Shown: piece by piece, positions 25,148 through 53,944 of the stretch
Numbering within the stretch: position 1 is the first letter of the stretch
How the letters are laid out: every line of letters begins with the position of its first letter
Assembly: GCA_017532345.1 (NCBI GenBank)
Contig: JAFXJJ010000005.1
Coordinates: 2,193-66,192, forward strand
Source: Erysipelotrichales bacterium
GTDB lineage: Bacteria; Bacillota_I; Bacilli_A; Erysipelotrichales; Erysipelotrichaceae
Length of the DNA: 64,000 bases
Direction: 5' to 3'
Translations under genes and position numbers: made by a program
Notes under the pieces: generated by a model
Seen by the model: the letters and a program-made list of their open reading frames with translations, nothing else
The model's database searches: none
What the model was told of the DNA's origin: nothing

Positions 25148-25402
25148 TTATTCATTTGTAGTACTGATTATAGTTGCCGTACATCCAGCATCTTCAATTG
25201 TATAGATTAATAGTGATTGGTAATTACTATTTAGCTTAGAATCGATTATCTCAAATTCATATTTCGGATTTTCACTTAATACATCATATAATGCATCTAA
25301 GTTACAACCATAATATGATGGGAACTCACATTCTTCTTTAAGCCATAAATGAAATGATTTCATATCTTCGAATAAATCTAAATTAATACTAATCTTCTTC
25401 AT
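25148..25402 (-). CDS. barstar-family ribonuclease inhibitor
   Basis: MKKISINLDLFEDMKSFHLWLKEECEFPSYYGCNLDALYDVLS aligns with barstar (..LPEYYGENLDALWDCLT..). The start at 25402 overlaps the end of the RNase gene. Confidence 0.85.
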   Translation of the reverse strand: MKKISINLDLFEDMKSFHLWLKEECEFPSYYGCNLDALYDVLSENPKYEFEIIDSKLNSNYQSLLIYTIEDAGCTATIISTTNE

Positions 25403-25835
25403 ATATAATCTCCTCAAAGCTCTCATAATGATCTTCTGTGTAATATATTAATCCATCATTAGAATATACAATACGCTTCGCATTACGATATCCACCTTCA
25501 TAGTCAATATCACATTCATAATATTGTCTACCTTTTTCTTTAGGTAATAAGCCCTCACGATTACCAAACTTATCACCACCAATTGACATTCCTTCAGCAA
25601 CTTCCCAAAGATTTCCTTTTTCACTATCCCATCCTAATTCTCTAGCTTCTTGCTTCGTAATATAGTTATCTGGTAATTCACCATATGTATAAATATATAA
25701 TGATACTTCTTCTTTACTGCTATACCAACCATCTTCACTAATACCACTCTCTACTGTAGGTGTACTAGGTTTACTACATCCTATAATTAGTAATATTAGT
25801 GATATTGGAAGTAAAAACTTTAGTAGTTTCTTCAT
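25389..25835 (-). CDS. barnase-family secreted ribonuclease, lipoprotein signal
   Basis: LPDNYITKQEARELGWDSEKGNLWEVAEGMSIGGDKFGNREGLLPKEKGRQYYECDIDYEGGYRNAKRIVYSNDGLIYYTEDHYESF closely parallels B. amyloliquefaciens barnase. The N-terminus MKKLLKFLLPISLILLIIGCS has a lipobox. Confidence 0.9.
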   Translation of the reverse strand: MKKLLKFLLPISLILLIIGCSKPSTPTVESGISEDGWYSSKEEVSLYIYTYGELPDNYITKQEARELGWDSEKGNLWEVAEGMSIGGDKFGNREGLLPKEKGRQYYECDIDYEGGYRNAKRIVYSNDGLIYYTEDHYESFEEIIYEED

Positions 25836-26027
25836 ATTACTCACCAACCTTTATATACGTATTGTAACATATAAAAATAATAAAACCTATGCTTATCAAT
25901 GATTGTATGTGATTATAATTACTTTCTTCATTAATTAATTATTATAAAATTACTAAATATTTACTTTTTGTATTCTTTATACTGTTAATTTATGGTAGAA
26001 TTTTCTTATGTGTTAGGGGTGTTTTAT

Positions 26028-45337: not shown

Positions 45338-46249
45338 ATGTGGTTATTCTTTACCCTAGCAACGACTTTAATATGGGGTATAGCAGAACTTTTCTATAAG
45401 AAAGGTTCATATGAAAATGAGAAATACGACCATTTGAGAGTATGTATTCTAGTAGGTGCAGTTATGGGTATCCATGCGATATTTACACTTCTAACTTCAG
45501 ATATAGTATATAATCCAATGAATCTAATTATGTATTTACCTGTTTCACTATGTTACATAGTATCAATGGCATGTTCTTTCTTTGGAATCAGATTCATTGA
45601 AGAATCATTAGCAGATCCAATTGAAAATACTGCTGGTGCAATGTGTTCACTTCTATGCGTAATCTTTTTAGGAGAAAGTATTCCACCTATGGTTTGGGTT
45701 GCGATTGCCGTAATCACAATCGGTATCATGGGCGTTTCAAAAACAGAAAACAGTGCTGAAGTAAATAGAAAGCAAAAGCTTGGAAAGAAACTAGCTATTA
45801 TTGCTTTCGCTATGCCATTCTGTTATGCATTCATCGATGCACTAGGAAGTTTCTTAGATATCTTCTTCCTAGAAATGGAAACTAGTCCATTAATTGGAGT
45901 TACAGTTGACAACATTGAATTAGTAGCTAATATTTCTTATGAATTGACTTTCGCAATAGTTGGATTAATCTTATTTGCTTTCATGAAATGGAAACGTGTG
46001 AAATTCGAATTAGCTAAACAAAAGGATAAAACTATCGCAGCTATATGTGAAACAGCTGGTCAATTAACTTATGTATATGCTATGAGTGGAAATGGTGCTA
46101 TCGCTGCTCCTATTCTTTCAAGTGTATGTGTTGTATCATTATTATTATCAAGAATCTTCTTAAAGGAAAAGCTTACAAAGAAACAATACTTATTTATTAG
46201 TATCATTATTGCTGGTATACTAATGCTTGCAGTACTTGAAGGTGAATAG
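45338..46249 (+). CDS. EamA/DMT-family transporter
   Basis: 303 aa, 10-TM-like, with two-repeat architecture. Confidence 0.6.
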   Translation: MWLFFTLATTLIWGIAELFYKKGSYENEKYDHLRVCILVGAVMGIHAIFTLLTSDIVYNPMNLIMYLPVSLCYIVSMACSFFGIRFIEESLADPIENTAGAMCSLLCVIFLGESIPPMVWVAIAVITIGIMGVSKTENSAEVNRKQKLGKKLAIIAFAMPFCYAFIDALGSFLDIFFLEMETSPLIGVTVDNIELVANISYELTFAIVGLILFAFMKWKRVKFELAKQKDKTIAAICETAGQLTYVYAMSGNGAIAAPILSSVCVVSLLLSRIFLKEKLTKKQYLFISIIIAGILMLAVLEGE

Positions 46250-46281: not shown

Positions 46282-46322
46282 ATAAGACGTAGGGTCATCA
46301 TGATGCTCTACGTCTTTTCTTT
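46282..46322 (+). terminator. intrinsic terminator after the DMT transporter gene
   Basis: AAGACGTAG-GGT-CATCATGATG-CT-CTACGTCTT followed by TTCTTTTTC. Confidence 0.75.
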
Positions 46323-46406: not shown

Positions 46407-47012
46407 TCATTTTATTCCTAAAGCTTCCCTTATCATCTCTTTTGTAAGATTAAATTTATTTTCTTTTTTCAAATGTATTGTTTCTAAATCCCTGCGAATA
46501 CAGAATAAATATTCTTCTTCTCTAGTCCAAATTTCAAATTGAAGATTATGATCTTCTTCTGGCCAAGTACTTACAACATACTTTAATACTTCTGATACTT
46601 CAACCATCTTGCATTTTTTACCATAAATCGGTCCATAATCATAGTCTTGCGGTATAGCATATCCTCTAATTTCAATATCTACATTTTTAAAATCTTCTAC
46701 AGAATTAATTATTATTTTATTTCTTTCCTTCGCGTCATCAAAGTATTCTTTACAAATCTCTTTAATAATAGATTCATATTCTATATATTCCTCATTTACA
46801 GAATAATGATTTTTAAGAAACCCGTTAAAGCTAATTATAAGCTTACCTCCTTTTTTCGCGAAAATTTGTACATATGTTCTTTGTAGAATCTTTGAATGAC
46901 GTTCACAAAGCTCTCTAATCTCATTAAAATATTCTTCTAAGGTTGTTTGACTTACTATAACATTAGATGGAATATCATGTTCAGGATAAAAATAAGCTAC
47001 AATTTCTGTCAT
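46407..47012 (-). CDS. hypothetical protein, paralog family A (copy 1)
   Basis: 201 aa. Shares IVxYFxP..TLEExF..., IRGYAxP, KCKxxEVSEVL and C-terminal FNLTKEM(I/V)(R/K)EALG with ORF 49132..49725. Confidence 0.7.
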   Translation of the reverse strand: MTEIVAYFYPEHDIPSNVIVSQTTLEEYFNEIRELCERHSKILQRTYVQIFAKKGGKLIISFNGFLKNHYSVNEEYIEYESIIKEICKEYFDDAKERNKIIINSVEDFKNVDIEIRGYAIPQDYDYGPIYGKKCKMVEVSEVLKYVVSTWPEEDHNLQFEIWTREEEYLFCIRRDLETIHLKKENKFNLTKEMIREALGIK

Positions 47013-47106
47013 ATATATCCTCCTATTTTATTCATTAAACATTTATAATTACAACTAGTAAACAAATCAAGAACAAAGACTATTTTGAAAAAAGTATTTT
47101 GCTTTC

Positions 47107-47385
47107 TCAATACATATTTTCCGCAAAATATGTATTACAAATCTCCAAAATAATAGGTTCTAAATATTCGTACCCCTCCTTTATTTGGTAAAGGCCACAT
47201 CCTGATATATCAAACATAGGCTTATCATCTGCCGAATAAACCATAAATTCAAAATATCTTAAATCCTCTTTATAATATTCACAAACGTTTCTTATTTCAT
47301 CAAAACACTCCTCAAGTGTATATATTCCTCCAAAACGAAGTGTTTCTCTTAGGTCAGGTCAAAACGTTAATTTAACTTTATCCAT
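47107..47385 (-). pseudogene. truncated family A copy (N-terminal half only) with in-frame TGA
   Basis: Hand translation gives MDKVKLTF-TGA(47359-47361)-PDLRETLRFGGIYTLEECFDEIRNVCEYYKEDLRYFEFMVYSADDKPMFDISG...NMY-stop. It aligns to the first ~90 aa of family A (YTLEECFEKISIFCEKYKD...). Confidence 0.6.
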
Positions 47386-47408
47386 TATAACCTCCATTCA
47401 ATTTAGTC

Positions 47409-47858
47409 TTATTTATACAACTTTAAAATAATTTCTTCTGGTTCTCCTACTATGACTTGATAATCATCCTCAGTCACATTACATGCTTTACTATGTAATT
47501 CCACTGCATAATGCTGATATTCACAGAAGAATATATACAGTAATTCTCGATATAGATAATGTACTTTTCTAATGTTGTCATTCTTAAAATGGGTATCAGC
47601 TTCATCAAGCTTTTCTTTATTTAGAAGATTTCTTAACTCCTTTAAAGCATCTTCGTATTCTTGTTCATTATTTAGCGCATACTCTTTTAATAAGGCATTA
47701 ATTTCAATAGATACCCTTTCTTCCATTGGTTCTTCTATATTCTCTAAACCTAATTTAGCGATATCATCTAAAACTATTTCTAAATCCTTAATAGCACTTT
47801 CTACAAATAAACTATTATTTGGGAAAGTATCTAATATAAATGCTTTTATTGTCTTCAT
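47409..47858 (-). CDS. hypothetical protein
   Basis: 149-aa acidic helical ORF in the minus-strand string. No family recognised. Confidence 0.55.
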   Translation of the reverse strand: MKTIKAFILDTFPNNSLFVESAIKDLEIVLDDIAKLGLENIEEPMEERVSIEINALLKEYALNNEQEYEDALKELRNLLNKEKLDEADTHFKNDNIRKVHYLYRELLYIFFCEYQHYAVELHSKACNVTEDDYQVIVGEPEEIILKLYK

Positions 47859-47941
47859 AGTAACATTTCTCCTATTATGACGTGGCTACCACTAGTATAG
47901 TATCCGTTTATATACATCAACCTTTAAATAGTGGGAGTATC

Positions 47942-48208
47942 TTATTCTTTTGTTTTATCTGTAGGTTTTACTACAAAAGATGCTTTCCAAGCAGCCATTT
48001 TCTCATGATCCTTCTTTTCAAGATTCTTCTCCAGCTCTTCAATATCTTTTTTTGTGAAAATCCATTGTGGATTCTCCTCAGTAGAGCTAGGTAACTCTGT
48101 ACCTGGCAATATTCCCCTTCTTGCAAAAAGAAGTATATTAATTGGATTTATCTTAAACAATACAGCAACCTCTTCTACAGTATACACTTTATTTTCATCT
48201 AAATTCAT
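47942..48208 (-). CDS. small helix-turn-helix protein (excisionase/MerR-superfamily-type HTH)
   Basis: 88 aa. YTVEEVAVLFKINPINILLFARRGILPG is an HTH_17-like motif. Confidence 0.55.
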   Translation of the reverse strand: MNLDENKVYTVEEVAVLFKINPINILLFARRGILPGTELPSSTEENPQWIFTKKDIEELEKNLEKKDHEKMAAWKASFVVKPTDKTKE

Positions 48209-48229
48209 AATTCTACTCTCCTTCTCTAA

Positions 48230-48643
48230 TTAAAATTTATCGATATGCACATCTATTTTCACACCTGGCAAGAATTGTTCTTCCTCAGCAAGCCAAGTAA
48301 TTCCATAAACATTTTTGAAAAACTCCTTTTTCAAATAAATATATTCATTTCTTGATATCTCCATGTAATCTATATTATATTCTTCTAAAATGTTATGAAA
48401 TTCATCACACTTATCAAAATAATCCTGTGATGTGAAATAACCACCTTTTCTATATTCAGGAAGTAAATAATCATCTTTATTCCACGCTGGAACGGGTGGT
48501 TTATTATCATCAAACAATCCTAATTCATGACATTCTAAGAGATTATTCCATCTTTCGAATTCTCTTTCATCAGTACAGCCATTTGCTTCTAACTCAGCAA
48601 GTTTATCTTTTATTTCTTTTATGCATTCCTCTCTGCGATTCAT
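48230..48643 (-). CDS. hypothetical protein
   Basis: Start MNRREE at 48643 after a strong GGAGG. 137 aa, acidic and aromatic-rich. Confidence 0.55.
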   Translation of the reverse strand: MNRREECIKEIKDKLAELEANGCTDEREFERWNNLLECHELGLFDDNKPPVPAWNKDDYLLPEYRKGGYFTSQDYFDKCDEFHNILEEYNIDYMEISRNEYIYLKKEFFKNVYGITWLAEEEQFLPGVKIDVHIDKF

Positions 48644-48763
48644 AAATAACCTCCTAATACTGATAATACTATTCATACATCTTCACTCAGAGCTAAATAC
48701 TTTTTCTTATAAACAAGCTAACTATCATTACTACATATTATACCATAATACATGTATCATACG

Positions 48764-49105
48764 TCAGTTTGTCCATTCAATTTCTTCAGAGCCTTCAAAT
48801 ATATCTTTGTTGTAGATACCATCATCTCCTTCCATTTGTTTATATAAAGTGTAATCTACTAATTCTGCACATGGTTTGTTGTTTGCATCTGTTTTCGTAA
48901 CTGAATAATCCCATGTTCTGATAGTATATTTAGTACCATCGATTATTAAGTAAATTCTTTTATTAACCTCAATACCCTCAATAATTGCTTCTTTATAGCT
49001 AATATTACTTTTTTCTAAAACTGTTTCTACAAAGGAATCAATCCATTTAATATAGCTTGATTCCTCCAATTTATTAATAATTCCTTTACTAGTTTCTTTC
49101 TCCAT
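48764..49105 (-). CDS. hypothetical protein
   Basis: 113-aa ORF in the same-strand string. Confidence 0.5.
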   Translation of the reverse strand: MEKETSKGIINKLEESSYIKWIDSFVETVLEKSNISYKEAIIEGIEVNKRIYLIIDGTKYTIRTWDYSVTKTDANNKPCAELVDYTLYKQMEGDDGIYNKDIFEGSEEIEWTN

Positions 49106-49131
49106 TAGCTTTTTCCTTTCATATTTAATAA

Positions 49132-49725
49132 TTATTCTACTCCTAATGCTTCCTTAACCATTTCCTTAGTTAGGTTAAATTCATTTATACGTGCTAAGCA
49201 TATAGTCCCAAAATCTAGTTCTCGATCAATTGAAAATAAATCTACACCATCTTCACTAGAAACATAGAAACAATGGGTTCTAGATATTTCAGGAAAATCT
49301 CTTATACTCTCTCTCAATTTCACTAAGACTTCGCTAACTTTACATTTTTCATAAAAATCAGGAGCATTATCATCTGGCATCGCATAACCTCTAATTCTCA
49401 CATTCATATTCTTTAATTCATCAACACTAATTGTTTTTTTTACTGAATGACAGTTTAGATAGTATTTATTGTAAATCTCTAAGATATTAGATTCTAACTC
49501 TTTATAGCTATCCTCTATATTATACTCTGGTGTTGTTCCCTGGAAAGAAAACATCAGCTTTTTATTTTCAGAATATACTGAGATTTTAGATTTGTATAAA
49601 CTATCTTTATATTTCTCACAGAATATACTTATTTTCTCAAAACATTCTTCCAATGTATACTCACATATTAATCTAACAAATATCTCCTGTACATCAGGAA
49701 CAAAATATACTATAACTTTACTCAT
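49132..49725 (-). CDS. hypothetical protein, paralog family A (copy 2)
   Basis: 197 aa, with clear similarity to 46407..47012 (see that entry). Confidence 0.7.
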   Translation of the reverse strand: MSKVIVYFVPDVQEIFVRLICEYTLEECFEKISIFCEKYKDSLYKSKISVYSENKKLMFSFQGTTPEYNIEDSYKELESNILEIYNKYYLNCHSVKKTISVDELKNMNVRIRGYAMPDDNAPDFYEKCKVSEVLVKLRESIRDFPEISRTHCFYVSSEDGVDLFSIDRELDFGTICLARINEFNLTKEMVKEALGVE

Positions 49726-49797
49726 AATTATCTCCTATCTAACAATATATAATTTACTATTCTTTCTTCTATCCATTAACTCATTATCTAAAGCATC

Positions 49798-50112
49798 TTA
49801 GAATGCTTCTGCTGTTATGCCGTTATCTGTTGTAGGATAATATTTAAAATAAAGATCCTCTAAGCTTACCAGTGTACCATCTTTCATTTTACAGAAGCAT
49901 CTTCGGATCGTGGATTCCTCTGTTCTACTCAAGTAACAATATCCATCACTTACTGGTCTTTTAATAATATCTAATTCTTCAAAAGGCTCTACATTAATGT
50001 GAAAGCTTACTAGTTCATTACTACTAGAGTAGATTGCCTTTTTATTCAACATATCAATCAGCTGCTGATAATTCTTACCTTCTAAATATAGAATTGCTTC
50101 TTTATTTTTCAT
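49798..50112 (-). CDS. hypothetical protein (first gene of the minus-strand arm)
   Basis: 104 aa with GGAGGAAGG RBS. Preceded by motif copy 1. Confidence 0.55.
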   Translation of the reverse strand: MKNKEAILYLEGKNYQQLIDMLNKKAIYSSSNELVSFHINVEPFEELDIIKRPVSDGYCYLSRTEESTIRRCFCKMKDGTLVSLEDLYFKYYPTTDNGITAEAF

Positions 50113-50158
50113 TACCCTTCCTCCTTATTGACACCCTTAGTATAACTAGTTATTCAGG

Positions 50159-50184
50159 TAATTAGGTCGATTACGAAGCGACAA
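50159..50184 (-). promoter_or_regulatory. conserved 26-nt motif, copy 1 (TTGTCGC-N8-CGACC-TAATTA)
   Basis: Minus strand reads TTGTCGCTTCGTAATCGACCTAATTA, about 45 nt upstream of the ATG at 50112. Confidence 0.65.
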
Positions 50185-50205
50185 GTATTAAATCATTATT
50201 ATTCA

Positions 50206-50231
50206 TTGTCGCTTTTACTACGACCCAATTA
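50206..50231 (+). promoter_or_regulatory. conserved 26-nt motif, copy 2
   Basis: TTGTCGCTTTTACTACGACCCAATTA, about 42 nt upstream of the ATG at 50274. Inverted relative to copy 1 within the divergent intergenic region. Confidence 0.65.
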
Positions 50232-50273
50232 GGATACTGAAGAAATAATATATATTTGTAAGGAGGACATTAC

Positions 50274-50621
50274 ATGTTGTTTTTTATAATTGAATTAGAT
50301 GAAGAAAGAATAAAGAAAGATGGTATTATTAATTTAGAGAAAGCCTATGAATGTATTGATGATACATTTTCCCAAAGAGATGTAACTTTATATCATAAGA
50401 AAGGATCAATTAGATTTTATACAAGGAATATTGACAAGCATGATTTTGAATATTTATGGATGGTTAACTCACCATTTAGAAATGTATCTTGGTTTCAATA
50501 TTATATTAAAACTTGGACGTTTATGGATGTTGATGATGAAACAGGCGTCGTATTCGAGGAAGAGAGTTTATTTCTTCATTGGGTAAAAAGACCAAAATCA
50601 CCATTTCCAAATAAAGAGTAA
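50274..50621 (+). CDS. hypothetical protein, paralog family B (copy 1)
   Basis: 115 aa. MLFFIIELDEERIKKDGIINLEKAYECIDDTFSQRDVTLYHKKGSIRFYTRNIDK... is near-identical to the N-terminal half of the next ORF. Confidence 0.7.
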   Translation: MLFFIIELDEERIKKDGIINLEKAYECIDDTFSQRDVTLYHKKGSIRFYTRNIDKHDFEYLWMVNSPFRNVSWFQYYIKTWTFMDVDDETGVVFEEESLFLHWVKRPKSPFPNKE

Positions 50622-50623
50622 AT

Positions 50624-50932
50624 ATGCTGTTTATTATGATTGAACTAGATGAAGAAAGAATAAAAAAAGACGGTATTATTAATTTAGACGGAGCTTATAA
50701 GTGTATTGATGATACATTTGCCCAAAGAGATGTAACTTTATATCATAAGAAAGGATCAATTAGATTTTATACTAGAAATATTGACAAAAATGACTATGCA
50801 TACCTTTGGAGTGTAAATTTGCTTTTTGAGAAAAAAGATTGGTTTTGCTACTATATAAAACAATGGAGATTTCTTGATATAGATGATAAAACAGGAGTAG
50901 TGTATACAGACGAAGATATACTGAAAGAATAG
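50624..50932 (+). CDS. hypothetical protein, paralog family B (copy 2, tandem)
   Basis: 102 aa, starting 2 nt after the copy 1 stop. MLFIMIELDEERIKKDGIINLDGAYKCIDDTFAQRDVTLYHKKGSIRFYTRNIDK... Confidence 0.7.
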   Translation: MLFIMIELDEERIKKDGIINLDGAYKCIDDTFAQRDVTLYHKKGSIRFYTRNIDKNDYAYLWSVNLLFEKKDWFCYYIKQWRFLDIDDKTGVVYTDEDILKE

Positions 50933-51009
50933 ATAGTTCGTCCTGAGAAGCCATAGTGCTTATCTTTTATTTGTGATATAATATTGTAAGTTAAACAAGG
51001 AGTGATTCT

Positions 51010-51873
51010 ATGCCTTTTATAATTATTAAAGATCAAGTGGAAGCTGGGAATGTAGATGGTATTGTATCAGAAAGAGTATCTAATTCCATGATGCCAGTTG
51101 GTAACTCTAGGTTTCAAGAAAATAAATATAGTGATTCACATCGTTATGAGTTACTTCTACTAACAAGACATAATGATACAACTAATGACGAAGAATTATA
51201 TACTTATTATCAAAAAATGCTGTTAGAAGCCAAAACACTTGAGTTAGAAAAGCTTTTAATATTTCCTCAAGCATATAGTGTTGAAATGGCTAAGAAAGCA
51301 ATAAAAGAGTTTCTACAAGATAATGAATTGATGATTTATATGGTATGTAGAGAGCCAATATCTGAAAAGCCTAAGAATGCTAATTTAGAATTATCTAAAT
51401 ATCTTGAACAACATTATTCACCACCTATCTATAGACCAATCTCTATAGACTATGGTCCAACTAACGCACCATGTATGACTCAAGCTTCTATACCAACAAA
51501 ATCTATTAGCTTAAGCGATGCTTTAAATCAAATGGATGAGAGCTTTAGTGAAATGCTACTACGATTTATTGATGAGAGTGGCATGAGTGATGCCGAGTGT
51601 TATAAAAAAGCAAATATTGACCGTAAATTATTCTCAAAAATTCGTGGGGATCGTTTCTATCGACCTAGCAAGATAACAGTGTTATCCTTTGCGATTGCTT
51701 TAGAGTTGTCATTAGATGAGACTAATGACATGTTGAAAAGTGCTGGCTATGCCTTATCCCATTCCAATAAGTTTGACGTGATTATAGAGTTCTTTATTAG
51801 TCAAGGAAACTATGATGTATATGAAATCAATGAAGCCTTATTTGAATATGATCAAGCATTATTAGGAGTATAA
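51010..51873 (+). CDS. degenerate macro-domain-like N-terminus fused to a C-terminal XRE-type HTH domain
   Basis: The C-terminus FSEMLLRFIDESGMSDAECYKKANIDRKLFSKIRGDRFYRPSKITVLSFAIALELSLDETNDMLKSAGYALSHSNKFDVII is the HTH module I recall on Firmicutes macro-domain proteins. The N-terminus MPFIIIKDQVEAGNVDGIVSE resembles the MPFxIIxxDIT..VDAIVNAAN macro start, but the Gly-rich ADP-ribose loop is not evident. Confidence 0.5.
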   Translation: MPFIIIKDQVEAGNVDGIVSERVSNSMMPVGNSRFQENKYSDSHRYELLLLTRHNDTTNDEELYTYYQKMLLEAKTLELEKLLIFPQAYSVEMAKKAIKEFLQDNELMIYMVCREPISEKPKNANLELSKYLEQHYSPPIYRPISIDYGPTNAPCMTQASIPTKSISLSDALNQMDESFSEMLLRFIDESGMSDAECYKKANIDRKLFSKIRGDRFYRPSKITVLSFAIALELSLDETNDMLKSAGYALSHSNKFDVIIEFFISQGNYDVYEINEALFEYDQALLGV

Positions 51874-51875
51874 TA

Positions 51876-51901
51876 TTGTCGCTTTCCTAACGACCTAAAT
51901 A
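51876..51901 (+). promoter_or_regulatory. conserved 26-nt motif, copy 3
   Basis: TTGTCGCTTTCCTAACGACCTAAATA, starting 3 nt after the stop of 51010..51873 and 140 nt upstream of 52042. Confidence 0.6.
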
Positions 51902-52041
51902 AGCCAAATACCTTCTATACTGTAATTGTGAGTTACAGATAGGAGGTATTTTTATTAACTGAGATAATCATTACTAATATTAATAAAGATATAAAAGATA
52001 AATGTAATTTAATATCAATTAAAGAAAAGAGGTAAAATAAT

Positions 52042-52668
52042 ATGGCTTATAAAAAAATTGGGACAATTACAGAAGTATTATATGAAGACAAAAGTGGATG
52101 GAAAATTCTTCGTAACAAGCATGGATATGCTTTATGGAAGGGAAAAGGACATCCACTAGTTCCTGAATTACTGGGATGCACGTTATCATTCTTTATGTGT
52201 AATCTTAATAACCATTGTTATGAAGAAGGAATTCTTAATTGTTTGAAGGTAGCCTTCAATCATTATGATGAATGGGTTTTTGATGAGATAATTAAAGGAG
52301 AAGAGGAACCCTTCTTTGAAAGATTTAATATAATATTCTTACTACAATCTAATCTATTTGGTGGAAACTGTAATACATATTATTTCTATGATAATGTTTA
52401 TAAATGTTATGGATTTGGTAACAAAGATGAATTAGTAAGTTGTTTTAGTTCAGGAGAAAAAGTAATGAATAAACGACCTTTAGAAAATGATAATGATGTC
52501 GTGTATTTAGAAAAAGAACTTACTACACTAACAGATTTCATCAAAGAAGTTGAATATTGTAAAAAGCTGATGGACTTGAAATTTAATAAATCTACGTATC
52601 ATTTTCAATATGATGTAGCATTAGAGTATTTATTGGCTATTGATAATAAAATTAATACCACAAATTAA
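52042..52668 (+). CDS. hypothetical protein, paralog family C (copy 1)
   Basis: 208 aa. EPFFERFNIIFLLQSNLFGGNCNTYYFYD matches EPFQERFEVLFISSAERFGGLEDFYFVYD in 52758..53318. Confidence 0.65.
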   Translation: MAYKKIGTITEVLYEDKSGWKILRNKHGYALWKGKGHPLVPELLGCTLSFFMCNLNNHCYEEGILNCLKVAFNHYDEWVFDEIIKGEEEPFFERFNIIFLLQSNLFGGNCNTYYFYDNVYKCYGFGNKDELVSCFSSGEKVMNKRPLENDNDVVYLEKELTTLTDFIKEVEYCKKLMDLKFNKSTYHFQYDVALEYLLAIDNKINTTN

Positions 52669-52671
52669 ATA

Positions 52672-52696
52672 TTGTCGCATCATGTGCGACCAATTA
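52672..52696 (+). promoter_or_regulatory. conserved motif, copy 4 (best palindrome)
   Basis: TTGTCGCATCATGTGCGACCAATTA, starting 4 nt after the stop of 52042..52668 and about 60 nt upstream of 52758. Confidence 0.6.
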
Positions 52697-52757
52697 ATCG
52701 TAAAAAAGAGTATAGTATAGATGTAAGATAAAAATAAAAGAAAGTTGAGGATAAAAG

Positions 52758-53318
52758 ATGGAAGAAATGGTAATAGAAGTAATATATGAAAATATGGCTG
52801 GGTTAAAGGTATACTACTTAGCAGAAGATAAATCATACGCAGCTATTAATGGTGATGAAGAGCTGGAAGCAAAAAACTTTGCCGTATGCTTCGATGATTT
52901 ATTAGATATTCTAAAAACAAACACTGAACTACCTGGAGGCAGATTAGCTCTAAGCTCTCTATCTAAAAAGCGTGAATATTATGTAAAACGTGAAATGGAA
53001 AAAGCAACTACTGAACCTTTCCAAGAAAGATTTGAAGTATTATTTATAAGCTCAGCAGAACGCTTTGGTGGATTAGAAGATTTCTACTTCGTATATGATA
53101 AGAAAGACCAAGGATACTTAATAAGAACATATCATGAACTAATGAATAAGTTTGAGAATAATGAAAGCTTTGATACATTATTAGAAGATATAGATGCCAT
53201 GATTGAAGATGCCAAGGAAAGAGATGGTATTGTAAAGAATCTAGCTACATCAGATACAAAGCATCGTCAATTCGAAATGGGTATTAAATACCTTGAATTA
53301 TTGAAGAATAGTAAGTAA
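52758..53318 (+). CDS. hypothetical protein, paralog family C (copy 2)
   Basis: 186 aa, similar to 52042..52668 (see above). Confidence 0.65.
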   Translation: MEEMVIEVIYENMAGLKVYYLAEDKSYAAINGDEELEAKNFAVCFDDLLDILKTNTELPGGRLALSSLSKKREYYVKREMEKATTEPFQERFEVLFISSAERFGGLEDFYFVYDKKDQGYLIRTYHELMNKFENNESFDTLLEDIDAMIEDAKERDGIVKNLATSDTKHRQFEMGIKYLELLKNSK

Positions 53319-53425: not shown

Positions 53426-53466
53426 CAAAAAAGCATCAAATTCCTCCTTTGATGCTTTTTATTTTC
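53426..53466. terminator. bidirectional terminator closing the plus-strand arm
   Basis: AAAAAGCATCAAA-ttcctcc-TTTGATGCTTTTT. Confidence 0.8.
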
Positions 53467-53542: not shown

Positions 53543-53944
53543 TTATTCAGCATAATATTGATAATATGCTTTTTCAATTTTTTCCTCATAATTAACTATA
53601 TTGTTAGATTTTGGTTCATGCTTATTTACAAAATAGAAGCCATCAATATATCCTTTTGTAAAAGCATCTTTAGTACTTTCAAATTCTGTATTATATTTCC
53701 GCCCCATATCATAATATTCCATGTATTCAGTGTTATTCTCACTACCATAACCTGAAAACCAATAAACCCAGCCTTTCTTGTATGCTAAATTGTATTCTTC
53801 TTGTTGCGAACTAAATATACCAATTTGATTAGAAATGGCAACACACTCTTGCCTTTTGCCCAGTAAATACCCTGTGAAAGCAGATACGAACATTAGCGTA
53901 ATTACTATCAATAGAGTTACAACTGAAGTTCTATTTCTTGTCAT
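53543..53944 (-). CDS. hypothetical single-pass membrane-anchored protein
   Basis: 133 aa. N-terminal TM segment SVVTLLIVITLMFVSAFTGYLL, followed by a Tyr-rich soluble domain. AAAGGAG RBS. Confidence 0.55.
   Translation of the reverse strand: MTRNRTSVVTLLIVITLMFVSAFTGYLLGKRQECVAISNQIGIFSSQQEEYNLAYKKGWVYWFSGYGSENNTEYMEYYDMGRKYNTEFESTKDAFTKGYIDGFYFVNKHEPKSNNIVNYEEKIEKAYYQYYAE

What the first reader, a model, noticed from the sequence alone, without database searches (positions are those of the whole stretch)
46407..53318. Divergent cluster of ~13 small uncharacterised proteins with three internal paralog families: possible novel system
A 7-kb block with no recognisable enzyme, toxin, integrase or phage structural gene is organised as two divergent arms from a 160-nt control region (50113-50273). 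The block contains three paralog families:
- Family A: 46407..47012 and 49132..49725, plus a decayed N-terminal copy at 47107..47385.
- Family B: a tandem pair, 50274..50621 and 50624..50932.
- Family C: 52042..52668 and 52758..53318.

It also holds two HTH proteins: an 88-aa excisionase/MerR-type protein at 47942..48208 and a degenerate macro-like + XRE-HTH protein at 51010..51873. The proteins are small, cytoplasmic, acidic and aromatic-rich. That composition and the paralog expansion are typical of immunity-protein or antitoxin arrays and anti-defence gene sets. No cognate toxin or secretion gene is in view. Strong terminators at 46282-46322 and 53426-53466 bracket the block, suggesting an inserted module.
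Basis: partly seen in the sequence, partly recalled or inferred. Interest (0 to 1): 0.7.

Follow-up and report, generated by a model that had tools for sequence, protein, structure and literature searches.

The report
Co-regulated island of dead-enzyme proteins
A 7-kb pair of back-to-back operons in an uncultured gut Clostridia bacterium encodes twelve small cytoplasmic proteins, including inactivated copies of a toxin nuclease and of an ADP-ribose hydrolase, all behind one repeated DNA palindrome; it is probably a set of toxin-neutralising proteins, but its function is unproven.

Summary
There are twelve intact small genes plus one pseudogene in two divergent arms, the three paralog families are real, no known enzyme, toxin or mobility gene is present, and both flanking terminators exist.

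What the tools added:
- **Family B** is VapW-like: a catalytically dead VapD/Cas2-fold protein, known as the antitoxin of VapD. No vapD was detected in the 64-kb window.
- **The 287-aa protein** descends from MacroD-type Macro + HTH proteins, but both ADP-ribose-binding loops are deleted.
- **Family A** is an internal duplication of a ~95-aa domain with a confident model and no known fold match. In relatives the domain occurs alone, tripled, or fused to an ADP-ribosylglycohydrolase.
- **A palindrome**, GTCGC-N7-rCGAC, occurs four times in the window. All four are in the block, ahead of each transcription unit, and at the same places in sister genomes.
- **Selection**: all genes tested are under purifying selection (dN/dS 0.07-0.26) and diverge like flanking chromosomal genes. 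GC is not anomalous. The block sits elsewhere in a sister genome.

Best reading, at confidence 0.33: a self-regulated island of orphan toxin-neutralising proteins. A non-conflict regulon is nearly as likely. This is a new variant of a known kind, of moderate interest.

The parts
46283..46321 (.). Hairpin terminator between the convergent DMT transporter gene and A1 (left boundary)
   Evidence: RNA fold -15.1 kcal/mol, z -4.0; sequence with an A-run before and a T-run after the stem
46407..47012 (-). A1: two-domain family A protein (201 aa)
   Evidence: 35% identical to A2, E 3e-32; ribosome-binding site GGAGG
47107..47385 (-). Stand-alone family A N-type domain gene, broken by one TGA at codon 9 (47359-47361) where relatives have Trp
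   Evidence: own ribosome-binding site GGAGG; intact 96-aa counterpart P0114
47409..47858 (-). 149-aa acidic protein with no recognisable family
   Evidence: present in the same-species contig L001 and absent from the sister locus L002
47942..48208 (-). 88-aa MerR/excisionase-type HTH (HTH_17-like, sub-threshold); candidate regulator
   Evidence: Pfam HTH_17 E 0.001, 19.7 bits against a cut-off of 27; orthologs follow family A genes in L002 (74%) and L004 (46%)
48230..48676 (-). 148-aa acidic protein with no family. The real start may be 48643, which gives 137 aa as called in L001
48764..49105 (-). 113-aa protein with no family; conserved next to A in the sister species
   Evidence: 61% identical ortholog in L002; dN/dS 0.26
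49132..49725 (-). A2: two-domain family A protein (197 aa), an internal duplication of a novel ~95-aa alpha/beta domain
   Evidence: hhalign N-domain against C-domain probability 89%, E 2e-6; AF2 pLDDT 88.5; no significant fold match; only about 17 clusters at E<1e-10 among 1.84 billion representatives, a count that includes matches to P0005's unrelated extension
49798..50112 (-). 104-aa protein, first gene of the minus arm, no family
   Evidence: 74% identical ortholog in L002; dN/dS 0.14
50166..50224 (.). Two inverted copies of the GTCGC-N7-nCGAC element (50166-50182 on the minus strand, 50208-50224 on the plus strand). They form the core of a ~90-nt segmented palindrome between the divergent start codons and are the putative operator
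   Evidence: (DNA fold z -3.7); sister-genome contigs L002 and L086 both end here and share an inverted 24-mer
50274..50621 (+). B1: VapW-like pseudo-nuclease (VapD/Cas2 fold), 115 aa
   Evidence: AF2 pLDDT 90; Foldseek best hits 9kan_B/D (VapW), then VapD 6zn8 and 3ui3; profile against 9kan_B E 1.5e-7; the catalytic Asp column holds Glu
50624..50932 (+). B2: VapW-like paralog, 102 aa, ended by a TAG that replaces a conserved Trp. The vestigial tail is still readable to 50953
   Evidence: 72% identical to B1
51010..51873 (+). Pseudo-Macro + XRE-like HTH protein (287 aa); candidate regulator
   Evidence: 41% identical (E 2e-57) to a phage protein with a bona fide Macro domain (Pfam E 3e-42); 27-aa and 9-aa deletions remove both ADP-ribose loops, also in the L086 ortholog; HTH support is only sub-threshold
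51878..51894 (+). Third copy of the GTCGC-N7-ACGAC element, 5 nt after the stop of the 287-aa gene and upstream of C1
   Evidence: conserved at the same place in L086, L089 and L090
52042..52668 (+). C1: family C protein (208 aa), no known family
   Evidence: only 4 homolog clusters among 5.8 billion proteins; no PDB sequence hit with the profile; dN/dS 0.09-0.16
52674..52690 (+). Fourth copy of the element (GTCGC-N7-GCGAC), 6 nt after the C1 stop and 68 nt before C2
   Evidence: conserved in L086, L088, L089 and L090
52758..53318 (+). C2: family C paralog (186 aa)
   Evidence: 27% identical to C1, E 1e-8; orthologs 74-84% identical
53428..53460 (+). Intrinsic terminator ending the plus arm (right boundary)
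   Evidence: 13-bp stem plus a T-run

Best explanation
The block is a chromosomal, self-regulated island of small cytoplasmic binder proteins that neutralise toxins made elsewhere. That is an orphan antitoxin or immunity set.

**Shown**
- Two divergent operons share a block-specific palindrome, GTCGC-N7-rCGAC. It is present twice between the divergent starts and once ahead of each of C1 and C2.
- Two gene products are inactivated descendants of conflict-system enzymes. B1 and B2 are VapW-type dead VapD nucleases. The 287-aa protein is a MacroD-type macro domain with both ADP-ribose loops deleted, fused to an HTH-type domain.
- The remaining genes are novel small alpha/beta proteins that duplicate and shuffle as domains.

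**Inferred**
- One of the two HTH proteins, more likely the pseudo-Macro-HTH, binds the palindromes as a dimer and sets expression of both arms.
- B1 and B2 bind and disable VapD-type nucleases, as C. jejuni VapW does by blocking VapD oligomerisation.
- Families A and C and the singletons act likewise by stoichiometric binding of other toxins. These may include ADP-ribosylating ones, given the ADP-ribosylglycohydrolase fusion of the A domain in a relative.
For: - **Family B is VapW-like.** The AF2 model has pLDDT 90. The top Foldseek hits are VapW and then VapD. The profile matches the VapW antitoxin 9kan_B at E 1.5e-7. The catalytic Asp and Ser columns are not conserved.
- **VapW is a proven antitoxin and prone to duplication** (PMC11980593).
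- **A close B relative is a real partner.** One 64%-identical relative overlaps a fused VapD-VapD gene (L107).
- **No vapD was detected in the window**.
- **The pseudo-macro is conserved as such** in two species, with dN/dS 0.23.
- **The A domain is fused to ADP_ribosyl_GH** in P0096 (Pfam E 5.6e-76). It also occurs as single, double and N-C-N forms, as immunity domains do (PMC3482391).
- **One regulon.** The motif occurs 4 times against 0.35 expected, all within the block, and at orthologous positions in L002, L086, L089 and L090.
- **The sister genome places the block next to barnase-barstar**.
- **All products are acidic and cytoplasmic**.
Against: - No toxin target is identified, and no family matches any Imm or SUKH family.
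- Family B is unusually conserved for an antitoxin: 60-87% identity across genomes of 30-54% GC.
- In some genomes B is a single gene inside recA-recX-miaB-HD-pgsA-[B]-cysS.
- The genes diverge like housekeeping neighbours, with no sign of an arms race.
- Content is fairly stable between species, unlike classical polyimmunity loci.
- The ADP-ribose link rests on one fusion protein, one degenerate domain and one gene fragment.
- Which HTH protein binds the palindrome is untested.
Confidence: 0.33

Rival explanations
1. It is a lineage-specific cellular regulon with no conflict role, for example in stress, stationary phase or development. The VapW-like and pseudo-macro proteins have been co-opted as regulatory or RNA/protein-binding factors, and the palindrome is their operator.
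For: - Purifying selection and divergence equal those of neighbouring chromosomal genes.
- GC is not anomalous.
- There are no mobility genes, and no A, B or C homolog in phages or plasmids.
- B relatives are embedded in a housekeeping operon in two contigs or sit as singletons between housekeeping genes.
- B is very highly conserved.
Against: - Families A and C are extremely rare and patchy.
- The block lies at a different place and orientation in the sister genome.
- Paralog expansion, pseudogenisation and domain shuffling are typical of conflict genes.
- B relatives also sit in defence islands.
- One B relative is a canonical vapW next to vapD.
Confidence: 0.28
2. It is a complete toxin-antitoxin or defence system whose toxin or effector is among the unrecognised proteins: family C, family A or one of the four singletons. 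The VapW-like and HTH proteins would be its antitoxin or regulator components.
For: - Operon layout with HTH proteins and an autoregulation-type palindrome.
- VapW-type proteins normally have a partner (PMC11980593).
- Most genes have no assignable fold.
- C1 and C2 each have their own operator copy.
Against: - No nuclease, NTase, ART, pore-forming or other effector signature was found in Pfam or PADLOC.
- No VapD-like sequence was found.
- All proteins are acidic, soluble and small.
- Nothing here tests toxicity.
Confidence: 0.17
3. It is the remnant cargo of a phage or conjugative element: an anti-defence or early-gene set that became fixed in the chromosome.
For: - Intact Macro-HTH homologs lie in a gut phage next to a large methyltransferase, and in a Vescimonas megaplasmid next to a DNA methylase.
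- There are weak single-domain resemblances of family A to AcrIF9 and to small phage proteins of unknown function.
- Terminators bracket the block.
- Its position differs in the sister genome.
Against: - No integrase, structural gene, att-like repeat or tRNA is present.
- A, B and C are absent from 2.9 million viral contigs or 50,697 phage records and from 72,556 plasmids.
- The fold matches are not significant (E >= 0.02-0.08).
- Composition and divergence look chromosomal.
- Exact motif matches in viral contigs are not near any block homolog.
Confidence: 0.12

Closest known systems
VapW antitoxin of the VapWD type II toxin-antitoxin system (Gilep et al. 2025, PMC11980593; PDB 9kan)
   Same: B1 and B2 share the VapD/Cas2 ferredoxin-like fold and detectable sequence homology with VapW. 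They lack the catalytic Asp and Ser. They are tandemly duplicated, as vapW genes often are. A 64%-identical relative precedes a vapD gene (L107).
   Different: - No vapD is detectable in the window or in most related loci, so these are orphans.
- The Clostridia family is far more conserved than typical antitoxins.
- It also occurs inside a housekeeping operon, or in arrays of up to 9.
- Here it is followed by a pseudo-Macro-HTH gene instead of a toxin.
MacroD-type Macro domain + C-terminal HTH proteins (annotated 'O-acetyl-ADP-ribose deacetylase' in Clostridia; phage PV036457 XPP57999)
   Same: The 287-aa protein aligns end to end with these proteins (41% identity). The C-terminal ~120-aa domain is 64-69% identical.
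   Different: Both ADP-ribose-binding loops (the GGG loop and PLISSGIYG) are deleted and the NAAN motif is lost. The protein fails the Pfam Macro model, so it cannot be an ADP-ribose hydrolase.
Heterogeneous polyimmunity loci of polymorphic toxin systems (Zhang et al. 2012, PMC3482391)
   Same: - Tandem small cytoplasmic alpha+beta proteins from several unrelated families, with paralogs.
- Domain duplication and fusion (the A domain, including a fusion to ADP-ribosylglycohydrolase, compare Imm-ARG and the Imm35 fusions).
- No toxin gene in the operons.
   Different: - None of the families is a known Imm, SUKH or SuFu family.
- The two arms are divergent, with HTH genes and a dedicated operator.
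- No recombinase lies nearby.
- Content is largely conserved between species and under ordinary purifying selection.
Orphan antitoxins / anti-addiction modules
   Same: An antitoxin-type gene is kept on the chromosome without its toxin. This would plausibly protect against toxins carried by incoming elements.
   Different: Known cases are single genes. Here the orphan antitoxin homologs are embedded in a 12-gene co-regulated block of otherwise unknown proteins.

Membership tests
VapW (inactivated VapD homolog, antitoxin) | VapD/Cas2-type modified ferredoxin fold | tested here: met
   AF2 pLDDT 90. Foldseek hits: 9kan_B/D E 3e-4, TM 0.64-0.66; VapD 6zn8 and 3ui3 TM 0.57-0.73
VapW (inactivated VapD homolog, antitoxin) | Sequence homology to characterised VapW | tested here: met
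   The 52-sequence profile matches 9kan_B 'VapW antitoxin' at E 1.5e-7. Identity to the Campylobacterota-type VapW of L097 is 33-35%
VapW (inactivated VapD homolog, antitoxin) | Catalytic Asp and/or Ser of VapD replaced | tested here: met
   The Asp column holds E, Q, R, K or V and the Ser column is not conserved
VapW (inactivated VapD homolog, antitoxin) | Adjacent cognate vapD toxin gene | tested here: not met
   No VapD-like sequence or motif was found in the 64-kb window. One is present only in the related loci L107/L108
VapW (inactivated VapD homolog, antitoxin) | Binds and neutralises VapD | not testable with these tools
   Needs co-expression or pull-down experiments
Macro domain (PF01661) ADP-ribose binding/hydrolase | Passes the Pfam Macro model | tested here: not met
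   No Macro hit at E<=1. The homolog in phage L105 scores E 3e-42
Macro domain (PF01661) ADP-ribose binding/hydrolase | Intact ADP-ribose-binding loops (GGG loop; GIYG/diphosphate loop; NAAN) | tested here: not met
   27-aa and 9-aa deletions remove both loops, and NAAN is replaced by SERV
Macro domain (PF01661) ADP-ribose binding/hydrolase | Homologous descent from Macro-HTH proteins | tested here: met
   BLASTP E 2e-57, 41% identity over 263 columns; alignment
Polyimmunity locus (Zhang et al. 2012) | Genes belong to recognised immunity families (SUKH, SuFu, Imm1-74 and others) | tested here: not met
   Pfam at E<=1 gives only Imm7 at E 0.18, 12.6 bits, for C1
Polyimmunity locus (Zhang et al. 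2012) | Tandem co-directional small genes without a toxin gene | tested here: inconclusive
   No toxin is recognisable, but there are two divergent arms containing HTH genes
Polyimmunity locus (Zhang et al. 2012) | Strong content variation between close strains; recombinase nearby | tested here: inconclusive
   The minus arm has 8 genes here against 4 in the sister species, while the plus arm is the same. No recombinase is present. No same-species strain lacking the block was available
Prophage / integrative element | Integrase, att repeats, tRNA target, phage or conjugation genes, compositional shift | tested here: not met
Known anti-phage defence systems (PADLOC-DB 2.0) | Any component model matched | tested here: not met
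   0 hits at E<=0.1 for the 10 block proteins scanned (A2 and B2, paralogs of scanned proteins, were not scanned)
HTH_17 / MerR-excisionase type HTH (88-aa protein) | Passes the Pfam model | tested here: inconclusive
   E 0.001, 19.7 bits against a cut-off of 27; MerR_1 E 0.012; no PDB sequence relative

The most novel reading that the evidence does not exclude
The block is an undescribed kind of multi-component conflict module built largely from pseudo-enzymes (dead VapD, dead macro) and a new-fold, shuffling ~95-aa domain (family A). It would be wired as one regulon by the GTCGC-N7-GCGAC operator and would neutralise nuclease and ADP-ribosylating toxins from mobile elements or competitors. 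Family A would then be a new immunity or anti-toxin fold associated with ADP-ribosylation reversal.
Probability: 0.15. Interest if true: 0.75.

Novelty: new variant of a known kind. Interest (0 to 1): 0.5.

Why it matters
If the neutraliser reading is right, four things follow.
- VapW would extend from a paired antitoxin to a widespread orphan family in gut Clostridia.
- It would be a second example, after VapW, of a conflict enzyme kept as an inactive scaffold: a macro domain without its ligand loops.
- Two new protein families (A and C) would gain a testable role.
- The conserved palindrome and the two HTH candidates make regulation of the block directly testable.

If the non-conflict reading is right, the block shows antitoxin-type proteins being co-opted into ordinary cell physiology. 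Either way, nothing in the block is annotated today.

Tried and rejected
**Synteny test.** I scanned 185,579 species genomes with the DMT transporter to see whether the block is present or absent between DMT and bgl. The scan returned 80 loci with a DMT 65-89% identical (most 83-89%), but no shared flanks and no block. The test could not be done.

**Stop-codon recoding.** I considered it because two Trp positions are stops. I rejected it: one is TGA and the other TAG, and both codons end ordinary genes in the window.

**All small proteins as diverged VapD/VapW domains.** hhalign finds only the A-N to A-C relation, and nothing links A, C or the singletons to B.

**Phage origin of the palindrome.** One copy lies near the intact Macro-HTH gene of phage L105. 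However, the 21 exact viral-contig matches are unrelated to any block protein.

**A link between B and ADP-ribosylglycohydrolase in L109.** The ARH there is only a C-terminal gene fragment without an A domain.

**RNA elements.** Rfam returned no hit.

**Searches that returned nothing useful.** These were PDB sequence searches for the 287-aa protein alone, for family C and for the 88-aa HTH protein, and a viral scan with the family A alignment, which was not conserved enough to run.

Full report
**1. The observation**

The ORF map matches the finding. Eight reading frames lie on the minus strand from 50112 down to 46407, one of them broken. Five lie on the plus strand from 50274 to 53318. A 161-nt gap (50113-50273) separates the arms.

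BLASTP confirms all three paralog families:
- A1/A2: 35% identity, E 3e-32.
- B1/B2: 72% identity, E 4e-54.
- C1/C2: 27% identity, E 1e-8.

The proteins are acidic (net charge -2 to -15) and aromatic-rich. None has a membrane-type segment.

Pfam, PHROGs, NCBIfam and PADLOC give no significant hit. The only exceptions are a sub-threshold HTH_17 match for the 88-aa protein and a PHROG match to the C-terminus of the 287-aa protein.

Both bracketing terminators exist. Most genes have a recognisable Shine-Dalgarno sequence.

**2. Family B is VapW-like**

B has 82 homolog clusters, all unannotated. A 52-sequence alignment gave an AlphaFold model with pLDDT 90.

The best PDB matches are chains B and D of 9kan, followed by VapD structures 6zn8 and 3ui3. 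The sequence profile alone hits 9kan_B, deposited as 'VapW antitoxin', at E 1.5e-7.

Gilep et al. (PMC11980593) showed three things about VapW:
- It is a VapD homolog that has lost the catalytic Asp and Ser.
- It binds VapD through the hexamerisation interface.
- It acts as the antitoxin of VapD, and vapW and vapD duplicate readily.

In family B the Asp column holds E, Q, R or K, and the Ser column is not conserved.

One relative, P0058, is 64% identical to B1. It overlaps a 272-aa gene made of two fused VapD domains (L107/L108). The family therefore includes genuine vapW-vapD pairs. More distant canonical repeats appear in L097.

No VapD-like sequence is detectable in the whole window. None is detectable in most other B loci either. 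Those loci are:
- a nine-gene B array beside BlaI/BlaR1, Sel1 proteins and a type III-A CRISPR locus (L091);
- a divergent array with three further diverged paralogs (L103);
- a copy next to an ADP-ribosylglycohydrolase fragment in a McrBC/AbiE island (L109);
- singletons between housekeeping genes (L094);
- a single gene inside recA-recX-miaB-HD-pgsA-[B]-cysS (L101/L102).

B2 ends at a TAG that replaces a conserved Trp. The old tail, IVRPEKP, is still readable after the stop.

**3. The 287-aa protein is a pseudo-macro fused to an HTH-type domain**

tblastn found a 344-aa protein in a human-gut phage. It has a bona fide Macro domain (Pfam E 3e-42) and is 41% identical to the window protein (E 2e-57). 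A Vescimonas homolog is annotated as O-acetyl-ADP-ribose deacetylase.

The alignment shows that the window protein and its ortholog in L086 lack two segments:
- a 27-residue segment containing the GGG loop;
- the 9-residue PLISSGIYG loop.

The NAAN motif is also gone. The C-terminal 120 residues are 64-69% identical to the intact proteins.

Evidence that this C-terminal domain is XRE-like is weak but consistent. The L086 ortholog scores HTH_26 at E 0.0012, and the best PDB sequence hits are XRE-type repressors at E 0.3-0.8.

**4. Family A is a duplicated novel domain**

Only 5 clusters among 5.8 billion proteins, and about 17 among 1.84 billion representatives (E<1e-10; this count includes matches to P0005's unrelated extension), are related to family A.

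The N and C halves are homologous to each other (hhalign probability 89%, E 2e-6). Relatives carry the domain in several forms:
- the N half alone, about 90-97 aa;
- the C half alone;
- an N-C-N arrangement;
- the C half fused to an unknown 235-aa extension;
- the C half fused to a complete ADP_ribosyl_GH domain (P0096, E 5.6e-76).

The 'decayed copy' at 47107-47385 is such a single-domain gene. It has its own ribosome-binding site and one TGA where relatives have Trp.

The AlphaFold model of A2 is confident (pLDDT 88.5). It has no significant match in PDB or BFVD. The best hits are AcrIF9 at E 0.08, ERH, and small phage proteins of unknown function.

Family C has 4 homolog clusters and no profile hit in PDB. 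The four singletons have no detectable relatives outside this lineage and no profile relation to A, B or C.

**5. The block is one regulon**

The gap between the arms folds as a segmented palindrome. Its core element, GTCGC-N7-nCGAC with A/T-rich symmetric flanks, recurs 5 nt after the stop of the 287-aa gene and 6 nt after the stop of C1.

The relaxed pattern has 4 matches in 64 kb against 0.35 expected, and all four are inside the block. The strict core occurs nowhere else in the window.

The same element sits at the orthologous positions in sister genomes:
- upstream of B, after the 287-aa gene and after C1 in L086/L087;
- after the 287-aa gene and after C1 in L089/L090;
- upstream of the first minus-arm gene in L002.

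Metagenome contigs of two species break exactly at these palindromes. The spacing fits a dimeric HTH operator, and the binder is inferred to be one of the two HTH proteins. An RNA-level role cannot be excluded, because all copies point in the direction of transcription.

**6. Evolutionary behaviour**

A sister species carries two gene sets on separate contigs that end in the same palindrome:
- first minus-arm gene, A, the 113-aa gene and the HTH gene;
- B, the pseudo-macro gene, C1 and C2.

In that species the minus arm abuts purC-purF-glnA. The plus arm abuts barnase-barstar, an ABC transporter, an MFS transporter and an amylase.

The barnase, MFS and amylase genes are found in the window at 18.6-25.8 kb, at 70-90% identity. 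The block therefore lies at a different place and orientation in the two genomes.

Block genes have dN/dS of 0.07-0.26 with dS near 1. The flanking barnase, MFS and amylase genes give 0.05-0.14. GC is 29.4% in the block against 30.4% for the window.

No A, B or C homolog is found in viral contigs, phage records or plasmids. The block is therefore an old, selected component of this lineage. It is not a recent insertion, although it is not positionally fixed.

**7. Interpretation**

The only interpretable proteins are inactivated derivatives of enzymes from conflict systems. One of them belongs to a family whose proven role is to neutralise a toxin by binding it.

Four further features fit an orphan antitoxin or immunity-type island:
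- paralog expansion;
- domain shuffling;
- a fusion to ADP-ribosylglycohydrolase, which is the one known enzymatic immunity domain (Imm-ARG, PMC3482391);
- the absence of any recognisable toxin.

This makes such an island the best single explanation (0.33). Three observations keep a non-conflict regulon almost as likely (0.28): the very high conservation of B, its housekeeping contexts elsewhere, and the ordinary evolutionary rates. A hidden toxin among the unknown proteins (0.17) and fixed mobile-element cargo (0.12) remain possible.

**8. Novelty and score**

The parts are new: orphan VapW-type genes in Clostridia, a loop-deleted Macro-HTH, two unknown families of which one has no fold match, and a dedicated palindrome. 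The kind of thing most probably is not new, since it resembles an antitoxin or immunity set under HTH control. I rate it a new variant of a known kind, with interest 0.5.

Noticed in passing
window 45338-46249 (+): The DMT/EamA-type transporter next to the block is 65-89% identical (most 83-89%) at the protein level in 80 MAG loci. The flanks of those loci range from 36 to 63% GC and share no synteny with the window. The gene is either exceptionally conserved or widely transferred horizontally among gut Clostridia.
   Followed up: partly
window 25389-25847 (-); L086 2966-3650: The window's barnase-like gene is the 77%-identical ortholog of a barnase that, with barstar, lies directly downstream of C2 in the sister genome. 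In the window it is about 20 kb away and in the opposite relative orientation.
   Followed up: partly
window 47359-47361 and 50930-50932: There are two independent Trp-to-stop changes inside the block: TGG to TGA in the stand-alone A-domain gene and TGG to TAG in B2. Both codons are ordinary stops elsewhere in the window, so this is decay and not recoding.
   Followed up: yes
L091 8930-14928: A Clostridiales MAG carries nine tandem VapW-like (family B) paralogs. They are flanked by Sel1-repeat proteins, a 1315-aa STAND-type NTPase, BlaI/BlaR1 and a type III-A CRISPR-Cas locus.
   Followed up: partly
L103 2940-11738: A family B gene faces a divergent operon holding three more diverged VapW-like paralogs and a membrane protein. 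Next to it lie a Sel1-like 640-aa protein, a 1020-aa multi-AAA+ protein and an Hsp70-like protein. This could be a separate uncharacterised system.
   Followed up: no
L107 5001-6127: A VapW-like gene overlaps a 272-aa gene made of two fused VapD domains. I did not see this tandem-VapD architecture in the parts of the VapWD paper that I read.
   Followed up: partly
L101 3808-4140; L102 8001-8333: A 74%-identical family B gene sits 10 nt after pgsA in a recA-recX-miaB-like-HD-pgsA-[B]-cysS arrangement in two independent contigs. This is an unexpectedly housekeeping-like setting for an antitoxin homolog.
   Followed up: partly
window 53543-53944 (-): A membrane-anchored, very aromatic (19.5%) 133-aa ORF lies between the block's right terminator and the bgl operon. 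It has no recognisable family and is present in the same-species contig L088.
   Followed up: no
L105 7128-7144: The gut phage that carries the intact Macro-HTH homolog has one GTCGC-N7-GCGAC palindrome 4 nt after the gene that follows it. This may be chance, because other viral matches to the motif are unrelated to block proteins.
   Followed up: partly
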